64,000 nucleotides of DNA from Anolis carolinensis (lineage: Eukaryota): NCBI RefSeq assembly GCF_035594765.1, contig NC_085842.1:20994782-21058781 (forward strand), read 5' to 3'. Position numbers: made by a program. Of the stretch, positions 27,701-33,700 are shown piece by piece. Every line of letters begins with the position of its first letter. Positions within the stretch are counted from its first letter, which is position 1.

Positions 27701-30700
27701 GGCTGTCGATGAAGCTCTTCCCGCATTCCAGGCATTTATATGGCTTCTCCCCATTGTGGGTTCTTTGATGCGAAGTCAGGTTCCCTTTTCCACTGAAGTT
27801 CTTTCCACATTGCATGCATTTATACGGCTTTTCCCCAGTGTGAAATCTGAGGTGTTTACTAAAGTTTCCGCTGTTGATGAAGCTCTTTCCACATTCATGG
27901 CACTTATATGGCTTCTCCCCTGTGTGTGTTCTCCGATGCACAGTAAGGTTCCCGCTTATCCTGAAGCTTTTCCCACAGTCCAAACATTGATATGGTTTCT
28001 CCCCTGTATGCATCCTTTGATGTGTAATAAGATATCCTTTCGAAGAGAAACTCCTTCCACATTCTATGCAATGGTACGGTTTTTCCCCTGTATGGATCCT
28101 CTGATGTACAGTTAGATTTCCACTCTCGTTGAAGCTCTTCCCACATTCTGCGCATTTATAAGGTCTCTCCCCTGTGTGGGTTCTTTGATGGACGCGAAAA
28201 CTTCCACGGTTACTGAAGCTCTTTCCACACTGCATGCACTGATATAGTGCCTCCTCTGTGTGGATTTTTTCATGTTTACTTAATGCTAATTGATATTTGT
28301 ATATTTTCCCACACACCTGACACTTTCTAATCCTCCTCTTTTTGTGATTAATTGAAACCCCAAGTTCATAAACATCCAAACATTTTGAGTCAGGGGATTT
28401 CCCTGTCTTCTGTGCTTTGTTTCCTTTATACCTCTTTGGTCCCATTTCAGTCTGTAAGGTCTGTTTTCTCACTCCATGCTTCCCTGCATTTGATGACACC
28501 ATAGAATTCCCATTGTCTTTGCCATCACCTGCAAGGGAGGAGCAGAAACAAAACATCCCGATGTTAAATAAGGCCGTTGGATTTCACCCACTGGGAGACC
28601 AAAACGTACAAGAATGAGGGTGAAAGTAAATATATGATTTTATAAATCACTTCTATAATTTAATTAACTGAAAAGGAAGGGCTCCTTTTTCTCTCTCTGA
28701 AAGCAGACAAATCTACTTGGAACTGGGAAATTAAGAAGAGGAAATGATACCTATGTGGATGAAGCCCTTCTCAAGTTATGAGAAAAATAGCCCATTATAA
28801 ATAAAAAGAAAGCGTGATGCTCTTTTCAGTAAACCCTTTCTTAGGATTAGAGAAGATGGCACTTGACATAGTACAGGCAGTCTCCAGGTTACGAACAAGT
28901 TCGGTTGGTTTGTTCTTAAGTTGAATTTGTGTAAAAGTCAGAACATGTACATTTCTTAAGTGTAACTCCAGCCACCTTTTTAAATGTTTTGGAAAGCACA
29001 AGGAAGGGTTAACATCCCTGTGACATTTGTTTTGCTGTCTTTGCCCCTGTTCAAAACATTCCACCTCAGTTTCTGTTGGATTTTGAATATTTCGGGTTGT
29101 TGCGGAAACAAGGAACGGTGATAGTTTCAGTGGATACACCTTTTCCCCATGATAACCCTTACAGGAGTAAATTTCCCTTCTTAGGGGTAGATTTCCTGTT
29201 GTCTCAAGGACAGAAGGTGAGATTAAGTCTTTCTAATGAGGATACAAACAGCAAGAAAAACCGCACAGTGGCTCTACCCCCACACCATACTAACACATCC
29301 CCCATAAAATTTGCATGGAGTTCTACTTTAAATACAACTTGGACAGATGTTTGCCTTAACATAATATTTATTTATTACCTGTGCATGTAAATACTTAGAC
29401 ATTTTCAAATATGATACAGTACAACCTTAAACTATCTTGGTAGAGAATGGGACTCATATTACAGAGTCAGAGTCAGAGTCTGCTGCCGGAGTCTGTATAT
29501 TGCAGGGGGCTTGAAAGAGGGCTTGCACACAGCTTTTCTTTTTCTCGGCATAAATAGCTTTGTAGCATTTCAGGCTGTCAGTAACCGCACAGTAAGCTTT
29601 GGCAAACCTCGCTGCATCAGGGTCTTGCTCCTCTAACTTTGCCATTCCTGCTTCAATGAGACAAAAAGCATCAGCTAATTTTTTGGTAGAAAACTTTTTC
29701 AATGTTGAAGTTTCTAGGTACGGGGTTTCTTCCGCAAATGGTATCATCTGCTGCTCTAGGTCCATAAGGTTTACTTCATTGGTTCGTTCTTTGCCCGGGG
29801 AGTCGAGCAACTCTATGATATCATCTTCACTGATGCCCAGCTGCAATTCATTGCCAATTGCAACCACAGCTTGCCTGGTTTCGGCAATTTCATCATCTAT
29901 ACTCTCAAGAAATCCTTGTTTGAATTGGGGGCACAATTTCTCCCAAGCTCCTTTCATGGTTGTCTCTTTCACTTCATCCCAAGCACCAGCAATATTTTTG
30001 ATGGCATCATGAATGCTATAGTTCTTCCACAACTCCTTTAAAGTCATCTCACCCTTTTGGGCAGCTCTGACAGCCTGGGAGAATGCCCTCTGTAAATAAT
30101 GGGCCTTAAAGGAGGCTATGATACCCTGATCCACTGGCTGCAGGAGTGATGTGGTATTGGCGGGTAGAAATGCCACCTTTACATTGGGATGAACGTCGCC
30201 TGAAATGTTTCGATGTCCTGGGGAATGATGGTCAAGGAGAAGGAGAATTTTGAAAGGAATGCTTTTGCCCAAGCAATAAAGTTCAACAGCAGGGACAAAA
30301 TGGTCTAAAAACCATTCTTGAAAGACCGCAGCAGTAACCCCAGCCTTTGGATTTGCCCTCCAAATAACAGGAAGAGATGTCTTAGTGACATTCAGAAGCG
30401 CCCTCGGATTTAGAGAGTGATGCACTACCAAAGGCTTGAGCTTTAAATCTCCAGATGCATTACTCCCAAGTAATAACGTTAGCCTGTCCTTTGATGCCTG
30501 ATGACCCGGTGCACTGTTTTCCTCTTTCAAAATGTAGATCCTCTCAAGCATTTTTTTCCACAACAAGCCAGTTTCAGCTACATTAAAAATTTGGTCTGGC
30601 AAATAACCTCCATCCTTAATAACATCTTCCAATATCTTGGTGAAACCACTTGCAGCATTTACATCAACACTCGCTGCTTCGCCTTGAACTTTAATATACT

Positions 30701-33700
30701 GCAAATTTGCTCTTTCTTTAAAGCGACAGAACCAACCCCTGCTTGCAGCAAATTCTTCATTGCAATTGCCTACACATGCTGTTCGAGCAGCTTTTAACTC
30801 ATTGAAAAGGCTTCGAGCCTTTTCTTGCACTAAAGGAAGACTGATAGGCAGATTACGCTGATTTTGGACTTCTATCCAAACTGTCAACAGCCTTTCCATC
30901 TCGATAATTAAACCACTGCGCTGCTTGGTAATAATCGTAGCATTCATTGGGGCATGGCTTTTCACATGCTCCATTATTCTAGCTTTGTCTTTTAAAATGG
31001 TTGCAATCGTTGAACGACTGTAACCAAATGCTTTGCCAATGGATGACGGAGTTTCGCCTCTCTCTGCTCTCTTTATTATTTCTACTTTATGTCCCATGGT
31101 GATGGTTTTTCTTTTCTTGGCTGGAGTACCAGCAGTTCCATCAGATTTGTATTTCGGAGGCATTGTTGCAGGGTGAAAACAACAAGTGCGGCAGCGTTAC
31201 AATTACTGGAACACTATGCAGTACACTTTGGATGTGGTCTGGTGCCCGTTCGTAAGTACGAGTCGCACGCAAGTCGGATGTTCGTAACTCAGGGACTGCC
31301 TGTGCTAGGCCAGTGCTAACAATTTCCACCTGCAGAGAAATAGAAAATTGTCTTTGGCTAGCATCCTGTTAAGTACATACATAACTGTAAGTCCACATTG
31401 CACTTACATACAGTATGTCTCCCCCAACTCCCTTGGTCATTGAGGACTTTGACATCTCTTTCCTTCCTCCTTCTGCAAAGTCTAAAGCAAAGTCTAAAGC
31501 TCCAGGACTGTTGGTTGCACTGTGGTAGCCCTTCCCAGAATGGCTAATCTGTTGCTCATGGAAGAGATCAGAGAAGCGTCTGGCTGTTTCCCCTTCCCAG
31601 ACGCAAACTGATGACTCCATCCAGGAAGATTTGTTGAGGGCACTGGTGGATCTCAGTGGAATATAGCCTCTATTTCTCACCCCCCCTACTCTCCTAGGTC
31701 CTCCACGGCAACTTTAAGGGAACTTCTGGTGGAAGCGTATCATTTCAATGCCTAGAGGAGGTATAGCATTCTTAGAAAGTATGTATTTTGTTGACTTTGG
31801 GTAGATGAAAATGCAACCATCTGCAGGGACAGGGATTGTACTGCATAGCAATCATTATGATATCAGGGAAAGGTATGACTAGGATAACAGGATGGGAAAC
31901 AGAGCAATGAAAGTCATGGTCCCACTCTATTCTGCTTTGGTCAGAACTCATTTGGAATAACTCTGTGTCCAGTTCTGGACGCTACCATTCAAGAAGAATA
32001 TGGACAAGCTGAAAGTGTCCAAAGAAGGGTGATCAAAATGACCAAAAGTCTAGAAACCATGAATCTTCACAAGGAGTGGCTTAGGGAGTTGGGGCTGTTT
32101 GCCTTGGAGAAGAGAAGATTAAAAAGGGGCACGAAAGCCAACTCAGCTAGGGAGCTCTAGTGCCTTTCCAAACTACAAATCCAAAGATTCCACAGGATAA
32201 TGCCATGGCAGTTAAAGTGGAATCATGACACTACAGTTCTGTAGTGTGAAAATGGCCAAGGCCCAGTCCTAGCCACTCATCTCCAGAGCATTCTTCCTAC
32301 AGTACAGTGCTAACTTATTAATTGTAAGTATTCATTATAACTTATTTTTCCCTTCTCTCCAAATTCATTTTTTTAAATTTATGCCAGCAGTTCTTAATCT
32401 ATAGTCCATGGACCCCCAGGCACCTACAATACTATGAGCTTATTATTATTTTAAATTAGTACTAAATCATTCCAATAAAAATATTATCTCAGGACTGTGT
32501 ACATTTGCTTATTTTCCCCTTCTCTTTGAATTTGAAGCTTCATGATGAACAATTGAAATACACATTTGATGTGCTTTGGGGTTTTAAATCTTGAGTAAAG
32601 CCTTGATAGTCCAAAGGCATATTTAAAGGGTGTCCACAGCGGAGAAAAGGTTAAGAACTGCTAAATAAGACTACGATTCCTATTGTTCCATAGAACTGTG
32701 CCACGGCAGTCAAAGTGGTGTCAAGTTGCATTAATTCTACAATGCAAATGTATCCTCAGATCCCTTTGGTGCCTATTGATTAAGGAAAGAATGTTCTCAC
32801 CCAGAGGTGTCATACTGCCACAGTTCTTCATCATGACTCCTTATGGAAAGCCCTTTACGACCCAGGGGATTCCAATCTTCTTGGGTGAAATACAAAGTCA
32901 CCTCTTCAAAGACTCCTGAAAGGAAAAATAATATATATTATTTATTTATTTCTAATTTTGGACATGCTTAAAATTTTATATAAAGTGATTTTATTTTTTA
33001 ATGGTACCCGTTTTTATATGAATTGTTGTTTTGTACATTGTCTTATATGAATTGCTGTTTTTGTACATTGTTTTAAGGCATTGCATTTTTGCCTATTTAT
33101 TGTAAGCCGCCCTGAGTCCCCTCGGGGAGAAAGGCGGGGTAAAAATGATGTAAATAAATAAATATTTTGTGTCAAAAGCATTGCATAATTTATTTCGCGT
33201 CAAAAGCATTGCATAATAAATTTAAAAGTGATGAAATAGATAAACAAGTATAAAACTGATAAACTAGAGGGAACATAAGCTAAATAATTTTAGACCAAAA
33301 AAGGTCAACAGCTACCACATTGTCTGTAACTGTGCATGAGGCAGGACATTGTGGGGGAGCATACAGATGCTGAGCTGATTGTTCTGCTCCACAATTGCAC
33401 AAGGTGGAAGATTCCTCTAGGTTGTCTTGTGATCTGCCCACTCTGCTTCTGAGTCTCTTCAGGGACTTCTAAGTTGCGCATTCTTGGTTTGCCCCTGGAG
33501 GAAATCCATTTGGGATTTTCTGGTTTAGCTGCCCAGAGGGATACACTTGTTGTTGATGGAGGAAGATTAAGAGGAAGAGTAGTAGCTTTTTGTCTCTGGC
33601 AAGTTCATTTCAGTAAAGGAAGGAACTTTTGGGGCTGATGGGCAGACAATACGATACACCAGCATAATGGAAAGAAAAATAATGGCTGTTTTCCCACATT

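What the first reader, a model, noticed from the sequence alone, without database searches (positions are those of the whole stretch)
29454..31163. Intact Tigger ORF with a mutated catalytic triad: signature of domestication
Seen: 1710 nt with no stop or frameshift, while the TIRs differ at 4 of 24 positions, one TSD is altered and related MITEs are clearly decayed. The first catalytic Asp is replaced (FNVDET becomes FNVAET; codon GCT at 30576-30578). The second Asp context is altered (LDHHSPGH versus the usual DNAPGH, with 33 residues to the third Asp versus about 32 in Tiggers). The N-terminal basic NLS-like stretch and HTH domains look preserved. Established: CENP-B, JRK and TIGD genes are pogo-derived DNA-binding proteins, often with degenerate triads. 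Inference: a lineage-specific TIGD-like gene kept for DNA binding rather than transposition.
Basis: partly seen in the sequence, partly recalled or inferred. Interest (0 to 1): 0.75.

Follow-up and report, generated by a model that had tools for sequence, protein, structure and literature searches.

The report
Dead Tigger transposase kept in anoles
A lizard jumping-gene copy has lost a key catalytic residue yet keeps a full protein-coding frame, and a second anole species has the same altered protein, so the host has probably kept it as a DNA-binding protein; the decisive tests could not be run here.

Summary
Window 28874..31302 (minus strand) is a complete 2429-bp Tigger/pogo element. It has 23-nt inverted ends (4 mismatches), one intact and one altered TA duplication, and an uninterrupted 569-codon ORF (29454..31163) with CENP-B_N, HTH_Tnp_Tc5 and DDE_1 domains. 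The first catalytic Asp is Ala (codon 30576-30578). The second Asp motif carries a one-residue insertion.

New evidence: the closest database protein is an annotated Anolis sagrei gene product (568 aa, 516 of 569 identical). It carries both defects, which only 3 of 87 and 2 of 87 aligned relatives show. So inactivation predates the split of the two copies, and both frames stayed open afterwards.

Their 52-53 differences avoid conserved sites (p=0.0015). They leave a 94-residue run in the DNA-binding region untouched (p=0.002). The element's own ends and two related MITEs in the window have decayed.

This favours a lineage-specific TIGD-like domestication. It is not proven: no lizard genome, ortholog DNA or transcripts were available, so synteny, copy number and dN/dS are untested. 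The window copy also has more hits at conserved sites than the A. sagrei protein. Verdict: a probable new member of a known kind, of moderate interest.

The parts
28874..31302 (-). Complete Tigger/pogo-type element, 2429 bp: 5' TIR, 139-nt 5' UTR, 1710-nt ORF, 580-nt 3' UTR, 3' TIR
31280..31302 (-). 5' terminal inverted repeat (23 nt). It differs from the five-copy TIR consensus at position 12 (or 12 and 13, depending on how the CpG site is polarised)
28874..28896 (+). 3' terminal inverted repeat (23 nt). It differs from the five-copy TIR consensus at positions 10 and 14 (and 13)
28872..28873 (+). Target-site duplication TA, intact side
31303..31304 (+). Target-site duplication, altered side (reads TG on the plus strand)
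31164..31302 (-). 5' UTR including the TIR: 9 CpG in 139 nt (observed/expected 1.02), against 0.16-0.28 in the flanks. Candidate unmethylated promoter region (inference)
29454..31163 (-). Intact ORF, 569 aa plus stop: pogo/Tigger transposase architecture
30972..31118 (-). CENP-B_N helix-turn-helix (residues 16-64), preceded by the KKRK basic stretch
   Evidence: profile match to the CENP-B DNA-binding domain structure 1HLV, E=1.4e-16
30699..30902 (-). HTH_Tnp_Tc5 second DNA-binding domain (residues 88-155)
30750..31031 (-). Residues 45-138: a 94-residue run with no difference from the A. sagrei protein
   Evidence: P=0.0022 under random placement
29943..30491 (-). DDE_1 catalytic-core match (residues 225-407). 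The first catalytic position lies upstream of this Pfam model
30576..30578 (-). Codon GCT = Ala196 at the first catalytic Asp position (motif FNVAET)
30225..30233 (-). Asp311 (second catalytic Asp, retained) followed by His-His, which includes the one-residue insertion
30129..30131 (-). Asp345 (third catalytic Asp, retained). The neighbouring Met is Val in the window copy only
29367..29376 (-). Two overlapping AATAAA poly(A) signals about 80 nt after the stop codon, inside the element
   Evidence: read
26223..26602 (+). Decayed non-autonomous relative (MITE, 380 bp, both TIRs, TA after the 3' end), inverted relative to the element
42745..42915 (+). Second decayed relative: TA plus 5' TIR, the element's first 57 nt joined to part of its 3' UTR. 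The 3' limit is unclear
32801..32915 (-). Context: weak KRAB A-box-like exon with splice acceptor and donor, 1.5 kb upstream of the element on the same strand
   Evidence: Pfam 19.8 bits, just under the 20.4 cut-off
26865..28556 (-). Context: 15-finger C2H2 zinc-finger coding exon on the same strand. Its likely acceptor is about 350 bp downstream of the element's 3' end

Best explanation
This is a Tigger (pogo superfamily) transposon copy still sitting at its insertion site. Its transposase gene has been kept by the host lineage as a catalytically dead, sequence-specific DNA-binding protein: a lineage-specific TIGD-like gene of anoles or their close relatives.

Shown:
- The architecture is complete.
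- The first catalytic Asp is Ala, and the second motif carries an insertion.
- Both defects are shared with an intact A. sagrei protein, so they predate the split of the two copies.
- The differences accumulated since that split avoid conserved sites and spare the DNA-binding region.
- The element's non-coding ends and two sister MITEs have decayed.

Inferred:
- The protein no longer cuts DNA. It is established for DDE/DDD transposases and integrases that loss of one catalytic carboxylate abolishes catalysis.
- It enters the nucleus through the KKRK stretch.
- It binds the family's terminal repeats through its two helix-turn-helix domains. These repeats are scattered through the genome as MITEs (two in this 64-kb window). 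The protein would act there as a repressor or regulator, as SETMAR does at Hsmar1/MADE1 ends.
- It is transcribed from its own CpG-rich 5' end.
For: (a) Shared defects. The best hit, P0001, is annotated 'tigger transposable element-derived protein 1-like isoform X2 [Anolis sagrei ordinatus]'. It is 568 aa and 516 of 569 positions are identical, with 1 gap. It has Ala at the first Asp position (A in 3 of 87 aligned sequences; the third is a turtle protein) and the DHHSPGH insertion (2 of 87). The two are sisters with 100% SH-aLRT support. They sit on a long shared stem (0.20 changes per site, against tips of 0.06 and 0.04).

(b) Constraint after inactivation.
- There are 52 differences over 568 aligned positions. 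By conservation bin the rates fall 15.0%, 9.4%, 7.1%, 8.2% and 2.6% from least to most conserved (Mann-Whitney p=0.0015).
- The longest difference-free run is residues 45-138, in the DNA-binding region (P=0.0022, 200,000 random placements).
- The DNA-binding domains carry 5 differences in 117 positions, against 47 in 451 elsewhere (Fisher p=0.046).
- Replacements are more conservative than random single-base changes (mean BLOSUM62 0.135 against -0.29; p=0.03 at kappa 3, 0.010 at kappa 1 and 0.055 at kappa 6).
These tests hold whether the two copies are orthologues or paralogues.

(c) Relaxation of the catalytic core on the shared stem. Shared derived changes number 26 of 178 in the catalytic region, against 5 of 92 in the DNA-binding domains (p=0.027). 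The stem's share of total tree length is 0.092 for the catalytic part and 0.049 for the DNA-binding part.

(d) Decay of the element's own non-coding parts.
- The two TIRs carry 4 changes in 46 nt relative to the consensus of five TIR copies.
- One TSD base has changed.
- A 3' UTR segment has 11 element-specific changes in 86 three-way sites. Five of these lie at the alignment edge.
- At 6-8% neutral divergence the simulated chance of no stop in this ORF is 0.028-0.007.
- The element and MITE 3' regions also differ by 6 indel events per 320 aligned nt, whereas the ORF has no frameshift.

(e) CpG retention. The 5' UTR has 9 CpG against 1.4-2.9 expected (Poisson 2e-5 to 3e-3). In the MITE at 42745, six of the seven homologous CpGs are lost, mostly to TG or CA (read by eye from the alignment).

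(f) Copy number hints. Only one protein cluster above 75% identity appears among 652 significant hits. Novick et al. (PMC3014272, passages read) found no autonomous Tigger-type family in A. carolinensis 'despite numerous attempts', although MITE families with Tigger-like ends exist there.
Against: - No synteny, no genomic copy number, no dN/dS and no expression data. The species of the window is unknown.
- The TIRs, the TSD and the internal poly(A) signal are all still recognisable, so nothing in the anatomy distinguishes this from an ordinary old copy.
- The constraint tests are modest (p from 0.002 to 0.055). If the two copies had diverged neutrally by only the minimum needed for 52 amino-acid changes (about 75 substitutions), the chance of no stop is still 0.058.
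- The element-specific non-coding divergence is an upper bound. Both MITEs may share a progenitor branch.
- The window copy has more derived changes than the A. sagrei protein (21 against 15, with 16 unpolarised). It also has more changes at conserved sites: Met to Val next to Asp345, Trp275 to Gly, Pro335 to Ala, Leu460 to Arg. The gene could therefore be decaying in this species.
- NCBI gene predictions mask repeats, so the single cluster in the protein database is weak evidence of single copy.
- The high CpG content of the 5' end could also mean that the copy is young.
Confidence: 0.6

Rival explanations
1. This is an old, dead, neutrally drifting Tigger copy whose reading frame has survived by chance. 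The A. sagrei protein is the orthologous relic, equally lucky and picked up by automatic annotation.
For: The TIRs, TSD and poly(A) signal are all retained. There are 52 amino-acid differences. At the minimal neutral divergence that this needs, the chance of no stop is 0.058, which is not negligible. The window copy has several hits at highly conserved catalytic-domain sites. Both copies were ascertained because they are intact.
Against: The differences are not spread evenly. They avoid conserved columns (p=0.0015) and leave 94 residues of the DNA-binding region untouched (P=0.0022). At the decay level of the element's own ends (4 changes in 46 nt) the chance of no stop is below about 0.03, before counting frameshifts. 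Sister MITE DNA shows 6 indel events per 320 nt. The shared stem carries at least 46 further changes without a break.
Confidence: 0.2
2. This is one member of a multi-copy, non-autonomous subfamily that already carried the Ala and the insertion. It was moved in trans by an active relative. The A. sagrei protein is then a paralogous copy, not an orthologue.
For: The family clearly amplified. Two decayed MITEs with the same ends lie in this 64-kb window alone. Gao et al. (PMC7386202, section 9 read) set aside TIGD1-like sequences as multi-copy and 'akin to pseudogenes'. Orthology was not tested.
Against: Such copies would drift neutrally, which the constraint tests contradict. Only one cluster above 75% identity was found, with 2 member sequences, among 652 significant hits. 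Frog relatives, by contrast, appear as clusters of 5 to 36 members. No other full-length or coding fragment of the family lies in the window.
Confidence: 0.12
3. The ORF is not a gene of its own. It is used as an exon block of the surrounding KRAB/SCAN zinc-finger gene, making a host-transposase fusion in the sense of Cosby et al.
For: The element lies in sense orientation between a KRAB-like exon (32801-32915) and the zinc-finger exon. Annotated chimeras of SCAN, KRAB or zinc fingers with Tigger domains exist in Podarcis, Tiliqua, Hemicordylus and a caecilian.
Against: An in-frame TAA lies 11 codons upstream of the ATG, with no AG dinucleotide between them. A simple splice into the whole ORF is therefore excluded. 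The A. sagrei product is a stand-alone 568-aa protein, and no longer anole form appeared among the 22 proteins of 997-2845 aa that matched. The KRAB match is below Pfam's cut-off.
Confidence: 0.05
4. This is a still-autonomous transposon: either the Ala is an assembly error or the enzyme tolerates it.
For: The ORF is complete, the terminal 9 and last 9 bases of the TIRs are perfect, and the 5' end is CpG-rich.
Against: The same Ala and the same insertion occur in a protein from another species' assembly. A further 26 shared changes affect catalytic-region sites that the close relatives keep. It is established that DDE/DDD enzymes do not tolerate loss of a catalytic carboxylate.
Confidence: 0.03

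Closest known systems
TIGD1 and 'TIGD1-like' genes (Tigger1-type transposase-derived)
   Same: Same three-domain architecture. Same Tigger clade: 43-44% identity to primate TIGD1 proteins over 93% of the length. Relatives have the DD32D spacing reported for TIGD1 (PMC7325037, passages read).
   Different: It is not an orthologue. In the tree it groups with frog, turtle and unnamed transposon-like sequences (72-79% identical), away from the turtle and gharial proteins named TIGD1. TIGD1 keeps all three Asp residues, whereas this protein has lost the first. Gao et al. treat TIGD1-like sequences as multi-copy pseudogene-like (PMC7386202, section 9).
TIGD2-7, JRK, JRKL, CENPBD1 (stationary Tigger/pogoR-derived genes)
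   Same: Full-length transposase-derived proteins with preserved CENP-B_N and HTH_Tnp_Tc5 domains and degenerate triads. They are under purifying selection, with Ka/Ks of 0.055-0.207 (PMC7386202, Table 1).
   Different: Most listed triads change the second or third position (DD34S, DD34N, DD32G, DD30N, DA30P and the like; PMC7386202, PMC7325037); Gao's Table 1 marks four triads, including TIGD3-5, as '?'. This protein loses the first position and gains a residue after the second. Those genes have, as I recall, lost their TIRs and are spread across mammals or tetrapods. This one keeps its TIRs and TSD, and is known from two lizards only. These genes were not included in the tree here.
CENP-B
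   Same: The N-terminal two-HTH DNA-binding module. A profile of this family matches the solved CENP-B DNA-binding domain 1HLV at E=1.4e-16.
   Different: CENP-B derives from pogoR, carries a C-terminal dimerisation domain and binds the CENP-B box. No such domain was found here.
SETMAR (Hsmar1 transposase fused to SET) and KRABINER
   Same: Working model only. A transposase DNA-binding domain kept under selection binds the dispersed terminal repeats or MITEs of its own extinct family. SETMAR biology is recalled. KRAB-transposase fusions are from Cosby et al. (bioRxiv 10.1101/2020.05.07.082677, passages read).
   Different: Those are mariner-derived host-transposase fusions. Here no fusion is supported and TIR binding is untested.
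POGK (KRAB fused to a Passer-type pogo transposase, triad DN35D)
   Same: A pogo-superfamily domestication with a broken triad, associated with KRAB (PMC7386202, Table 1).
   Different: It derives from a different pogo family (Passer) and is a true fusion conserved across mammals. Here the KRAB-like exon is only a neighbour.

Membership tests
pogo/Tigger transposase family | CENP-B_N plus HTH_Tnp_Tc5 DNA-binding domains followed by a DDE_1 catalytic core | tested here: met
   Pfam E-values 6.8e-9, 2.6e-11 and 1.1e-41, all above the curated cut-offs
pogo/Tigger transposase family | Terminal inverted repeats and a TA target-site duplication | tested here: met
   23-nt TIRs with 19 of 23 positions matching. 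The flanks read TA on one side and TG on the other. Two MITEs share the ends and are flanked by TA
Active (autonomous) Tigger transposase | Complete DDxD catalytic triad (DD29-36D; DD32D in close relatives) | tested here: not met
   Ala at the first position. The second and third Asp residues are present but 33 residues apart because of a 1-residue insertion. The catalytic columns were assigned from family conservation and published triad signatures, not from a structure.
Stationary domesticated transposase gene (criteria of Gao et al. 2020) | Intact counterpart in other species of the lineage | tested here: met
   One other species: the A. sagrei protein P0001, 91% identical with the same defects. 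No third species was found
Stationary domesticated transposase gene (criteria of Gao et al. 2020) | Single copy at a conserved syntenic locus | not testable with these tools
The indirect hints are one protein cluster above 75% identity and no second coding copy in the window
Stationary domesticated transposase gene (criteria of Gao et al. 2020) | Ka/Ks significantly below 1 | tested here: inconclusive
   No orthologue DNA was available. Protein-level proxies indicate constraint: p=0.0015, 0.0022, 0.03 and 0.046. A conditional estimate of about 0.2-0.3 rests on an unverified species assignment (see full report)
Stationary domesticated transposase gene (criteria of Gao et al. 2020) | Expression as a host gene | not testable with these tools
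   Sequence hints only: a CpG-rich 5' UTR, AATAAA signals, and an NCBI gene model with isoforms in A. sagrei (name)
TIGD1 orthologue group | Groups with named TIGD1 proteins in a tree | tested here: not met
   It is nested (99% SH-aLRT) in a 10-row clade of frog, Pelodiscus and unnamed sequences. The Chelonia and Gavialis proteins named TIGD1 lie elsewhere (31 rows, quick LG+G4 search)
Host-transposase fusion gene (Cosby et al.) | Transposase domain spliced in frame to host domains | tested here: not met
   An in-frame stop lies 11 codons upstream of the ATG with no AG in between. No longer anole form appeared among the 22 long matching proteins

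The most novel reading that the evidence does not exclude
The element is the surviving full-length parent of an abundant anole family of Tigger-type MITEs, the autonomous partner that Novick et al. could not find. It persists only because the host keeps it as a catalytically dead protein that binds terminal repeats. In this reading it is transcribed from its own unmethylated, CpG-rich terminal repeat and 5' UTR, and it binds the thousands of dispersed MITE ends as a repressor or regulatory hub. 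Its position in sense orientation inside a KRAB/SCAN zinc-finger gene makes it a snapshot of a transposase caught between a selfish element and a host transcription factor.
Probability: 0.2. Interest if true: 0.6.

Novelty: new member of a known kind. Interest (0 to 1): 0.45.

Why it matters
Domestication of pogo/Tigger transposases is well documented in mammals (CENP-B, JRK, the TIGD genes, POGK, POGZ). The surveys read here list none that is specific to lizards. A confirmed anole-specific case would be a young domestication in which the transposon's ends, target duplication and sister MITEs are all still readable. That allows the order of events to be studied directly: catalytic death first, then relaxation of the catalytic core while the DNA-binding module stays fixed. 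It would also give a candidate trans-factor for a large MITE family in a model radiation. If it is only a lucky relic, the finding is ordinary.

Tried and rejected
The step was dropped.
- Species identification through the neighbouring zinc-finger exon. All 8000 candidates were generic zinc-finger proteins and the best identity was 59%. It did not identify the species. It shows only that this exon's protein is not in the collection, although A. carolinensis and A. sagrei zinc-finger proteins are (P0191, P0170, P0237, P0251).
- Search for fused forms of 997-2845 aa: 22 hits, none from anoles.
No fold search was run.
- Sequence and profile searches of the PDB. These reached only DNA-binding-domain structures (CENP-B, Sleeping Beauty PAI) and no catalytic domain. 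The triad assignment therefore rests on alignment and literature.
- Search for a SCAN exon belonging to the zinc-finger exon at 26865-28556. None lies between 31300 and 49700. Only a sub-threshold KRAB-like exon was found there.
- In-frame fusion from an upstream exon: rejected.
- Default blastn and TIR pattern searches for MITEs first suggested there were none. This was overturned by the more sensitive search.
- Rfam and tRNA scans of the window: nothing found.
- Literature searches for an anole Tigger domestication found no such report in the held library. Supplementary tables of PMC7386202 and PMC9219625, which list species and copies, are closed and may bear on this.
- Using the TIR mismatches as a simple clock was rejected at first because the four mismatches cluster within 5 nt. 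Comparison with three MITE TIRs showed they are four separate changes from a common consensus.

Full report
WHAT IS THERE

On the minus strand, window 28874..31302 is a complete 2429-bp DNA transposon.
- It is bounded by 23-nt inverted ends at 31280-31302 and 28874-28896. Each end occurs once in the window, against 0 expected in shuffles. The ends match at 19 of 23 positions.
- The flanking dinucleotides on the plus strand are TA on one side and TG on the other.
- Inside lie a 139-nt 5' UTR, one ORF (29454..31163, 569 aa) and a 580-nt 3' UTR. The 3' UTR holds two overlapping AATAAA signals about 80 nt after the stop.
- The frame is open for only 11 codons upstream of the ATG. It is closed there by TAA, with no AG dinucleotide in between. 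The protein therefore starts at its own ATG.
- Pfam finds CENP-B_N (residues 16-64), HTH_Tnp_Tc5 (88-155) and DDE_1 (225-407), all above their cut-offs. This is the pogo/Tigger transposase architecture.

THE TRIAD

I aligned the window protein with 86 of the 120 listed hits. These were the hits of 520-660 aa; the other 34 were dropped for length.
- First acidic column (motif FNV-D-ET): D 75, N 4, A 3, E 3, H 1, G 1.
- Second column: D 82, N 3, G 1, gap 1.
- Third column: D 75, E 5, G 4, A 2, N 1.

The window has Ala196 (GCT, 30576-30578), Asp311 and Asp345. A one-residue insertion directly after Asp311 lengthens the D-D spacing from 32 to 33. It occurs in 2 of the 87 sequences. DD32D is the signature published for TIGD1, and DD29-36D is the range published for Tigger (PMC7325037 and PMC7386202, passages read).

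The catalytic columns are assigned from this conservation and from the literature. A structural check could not be made.

THE KEY RELATIVE

Of 652 significant hits (8000 candidates scored), only one exceeds 75% identity. This is P0001, named by nr 'tigger transposable element-derived protein 1-like isoform X2 [Anolis sagrei ordinatus]'.
- It is 568 aa, with 516 of 569 positions identical and one 1-residue gap.
- It has the same three Pfam domains.
- It carries both the Ala and the insertion.

The next hits are 70-79% identical: frogs, the turtle Pelodiscus and unnamed assemblies. They keep the normal motifs, apart from two Pyxicephalus copies.

In a 31-row tree (rows hand-picked from the stored hits; quick LG+G4 search) the window and P0001 are sisters (100% SH-aLRT). 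Their shared stem is 0.20 changes per site and the tips are 0.06 and 0.04. They are nested (99%) in a 10-row clade that mixes frogs, a turtle and unnamed sequences. That clade does not follow host phylogeny, as expected for a horizontally spreading transposon family.

By parsimony, the common ancestor of the two anole-type copies already had the dead first position and the insertion. A sequencing error at the Ala codon is therefore unlikely.

WAS THE PROTEIN CONSTRAINED AFTER IT DIED?

No orthologue DNA could be obtained, so I used tests that need only the two proteins, the window's codons and the wider family.
- Conservation bins. The two proteins differ at 52 of 568 aligned positions. I sorted 561 positions by conservation among the 85 other sequences; 7 positions lacked a score. 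The fraction differing falls from 15.0% (19 of 127) in the least conserved bin, through 9.4%, 7.1% and 8.2%, to 2.6% (2 of 77) in the most conserved (Mann-Whitney p=0.0015).
- Identical run. The longest stretch without any difference is residues 45-138. It spans the end of the first HTH, the linker and most of the second HTH. Random placement of the 53 differing positions (substitutions plus the indel) gives a run this long with P=0.0022.
- Domain contrast. The two DNA-binding domains hold 5 differences in 117 positions, against 47 in 451 elsewhere (p=0.046).
- Replacement type. The replacements are more conservative than random non-synonymous single-base changes of the window's codons (p=0.010, 0.031 and 0.055 for kappa 1, 3 and 6).

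These results hold whether the two copies are orthologues or paralogues. A catalytically dead transposase is under no selection for transposition, so the constraint points to another function.

On the shared stem the pattern is reversed for the catalytic core. At sites where at least 6 of 7 close relatives agree, shared derived changes number 26 of 178 in the catalytic region and 5 of 92 in the DNA-binding domains (p=0.027). With the topology fixed, the stem takes 9.2% of total tree length for residues 161-410 and 4.9% for residues 1-160 (17 rows).

DECAY OF THE ELEMENT'S NON-CODING PARTS

A sensitive blastn found two non-autonomous relatives.
- One is a complete 380-bp MITE at 26223-26602, with both TIRs.
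- The other starts at 42745. It has TA, then a TIR, then the element's first 57 nt at 72% identity joined to part of its 3' UTR at 78%.

Comparing five TIR copies, the element's two TIRs carry 4 changes in 46 nt relative to the consensus, and the three MITE TIRs carry 3-5 each. The element's four TIR mismatches are therefore most simply decay from once-perfect ends. Two of the changes fall at one CpG site.

In 86 three-way alignable 3' UTR sites, 11 changes are unique to the element (5 of them at the alignment edge), 9 are unique to each MITE and 6 sites differ in all three. This is an upper bound for the element's own decay, because the two MITEs may share a progenitor branch.

Simulated neutral substitution of this ORF gives a chance of no stop of 0.094 at 4% divergence, 0.028 at 6% and 0.007 at 8%. 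The element and MITE 3' regions also differ by 6 indel events per 320 aligned nt, whereas the ORF has no frameshift.

Caution is needed. At the bare minimum divergence implied by the 52 amino-acid differences (about 75 substitutions), the no-stop chance is still 0.058. Both copies were also noticed because they are intact.

A CONDITIONAL dN/dS

Tollis et al. (PMC5798147, sections 16-17 read) give a fourfold-site path of 0.71 substitutions per site since the amniote root at 303 Ma, and a split of A. carolinensis from the Norops anoles at 35-40 Myr. My arithmetic gives about 0.0023 per Myr, and so about 0.16-0.19 between such species.

The 52 differences correspond to roughly 0.04 non-synonymous changes per site. 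If the window came from an anole outside the A. sagrei group and the genes are orthologous, omega would be about 0.2-0.3. That is in the range of JRK and TIGD6 (PMC7386202, Table 1).

Neither condition is verified. That A. sagrei belongs to Norops is recalled. The window's species could not be identified.

THE 5' END

The 139-nt 5' UTR has 9 CpG (observed/expected 1.02). The 3' UTR is at 0.28, the ORF at 0.42 and the flanks at 0.16-0.28. Nine CpG against the 1.4-2.9 expected gives a Poisson P of 2e-5 to 3e-3.

In the MITE at 42745, six of the seven homologous CpGs are lost, mostly to TG or CA (read by eye from the alignment). Either this copy is young or its 5' end has been protected from methylation-driven decay, as germline-active promoters are. 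The second reading fits an expressed gene but is an inference.

CONTEXT

The window is a cluster of SCAN/KRAB zinc-finger genes, all on the minus strand.
- SCAN exons lie at 1489-2070, 16660-17256 and 56517-57425.
- Zinc-finger exons lie at 10306-12261, 26865-28556 and 49774-50730.
- The element lies about 350 bp upstream of the likely acceptor of the 15-finger exon.
- It lies 1.5 kb downstream of a weak KRAB A-box-like exon at 32801-32915. The Pfam score there is 19.8 bits against a cut-off of 20.4. It aligns to the KRAB region of an A. carolinensis SCAN-KRAB-ZNF protein at E=0.001.

The element therefore probably sits in an intron, in sense orientation. The N run at 39631-39820 lies inside a TATC-type microsatellite and was left alone. 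Nothing suggested a human origin.

COMPARISON WITH WHAT IS KNOWN

This is a Tigger-clade protein related to TIGD1 (43-44% identity to primate TIGD1) but not its orthologue.

Known Tigger/pogoR-derived genes also have degenerate triads. Most published signatures change the second or third position; Gao's Table 1 leaves four triads, including TIGD3-5, marked '?' (PMC7386202 Table 1; PMC7325037). This protein loses the first position.

The surveys read list twelve domesticated pogo genes, none specific to lizards. They set TIGD1-like sequences aside as multi-copy (PMC7386202, section 9). Novick et al. found MITE families with Tigger-like ends in A. carolinensis but no autonomous partner (PMC3014272, passages).

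My searches of the held library found no report of an anole Tigger domestication. Closed supplements may list it. NCBI already annotates the A. sagrei gene automatically.

VERDICT

Against it:
- The transposon hallmarks are intact.
- The significance levels are modest.
- Copy number and synteny are unknown.
- The window copy has 21 derived changes against 15 for A. sagrei (16 unpolarised). It also has more hits at conserved sites: Val next to Asp345, Gly for Trp275, Ala for Pro335, Arg for Leu460. The gene may be under weaker constraint, or decaying, in this species.

If real, it is a new member of a known kind.

Noticed in passing
window 1489-2070, 10306-12261, 16660-17256, 26865-28556, 49774-50730, 56517-57425 (all minus strand); partial SCAN match on the plus strand at 4592-4834: The window is a tandem cluster of SCAN/KRAB C2H2 zinc-finger genes in one orientation. 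An extra SCAN-like fragment lies on the opposite strand. The 15-finger exon next to the Tigger has no database protein above 59% identity.
   Followed up: partly
window 5099-5230, 7483-7602, 23022-23177, 23382-23522, 23983-24072, 40334-40462, 41436-41540, 46376-46468, 63077-63249, and 12136-12261: A short interspersed repeat of about 130 nt is present in at least ten copies on both strands. It showed up because it overlaps the start of the open frame at 10306-12261 (tblastn). It was not classified. No tRNA-like or Rfam match was found in the window.
   Followed up: no
window 5274-5880: A 27-nt tandem repeat with 22.5 copies (87% matches) creates long open frames on both strands (5184-6005 plus, 5262-5888 minus). 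These have no Pfam family.
   Followed up: no
window 39087-40150: The N run (39631-39820) sits inside a long TATC/CTATCTGT microsatellite. More TATC-type arrays follow up to about 42627. It was left unfilled.
   Followed up: no
window 59764-60816 (+): A 351-aa open frame has a weak zf-RVT match (E=1.3e-4, below the cut-off). It is probably a retrotransposon remnant.
   Followed up: no
proteins P0125-P0128 (snakes), P0130 (Podarcis), P0070 (Tiliqua), P0072 (Hemicordylus), P0008 (Varanus), P0121 (caecilian): Annotated gene models in other reptiles and a caecilian join Tigger transposase domains to host domains: SETD2 in four snakes, SCAN-KRAB-zinc finger in Podarcis, KRAB or zinc fingers in skinks and cordylids, and RING plus Myb in Varanus. 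Most keep the first Asp. The caecilian KRAB fusion has Val there, and the Crotalus SETD2 model has Ser at the second Asp. Whether these are real fusions or annotation chimeras was not examined.
   Followed up: partly
proteins P0057 (Chrysemys picta bellii) and P0073 (Chelonia mydas): A turtle 'tigger TE-derived protein 1-like' has independently Ala at the first Asp and Asn at the second. Its sister from Chelonia keeps the first two Asp residues. They form a separate, long-stemmed pair in the tree. This may be another reptile domestication.
   Followed up: no
tree (10-row clade holding the window protein): Frog, softshell-turtle, anole and unnamed sequences 70-79% identical to each other are interleaved with very short internal branches, which does not follow host phylogeny. 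This suggests horizontal spread of this Tigger family among amphibians and reptiles.
   Followed up: no
window 31331-31345 (minus strand), just upstream of the 5' TIR: A pyrimidine-rich tract ending in CAG sits 28 nt upstream of the element, and a perfect 12-nt tandem duplication lies at 31475-31500. The first could be a splice acceptor of a 5' UTR exon or of the host gene. It was not tested.
   Followed up: no
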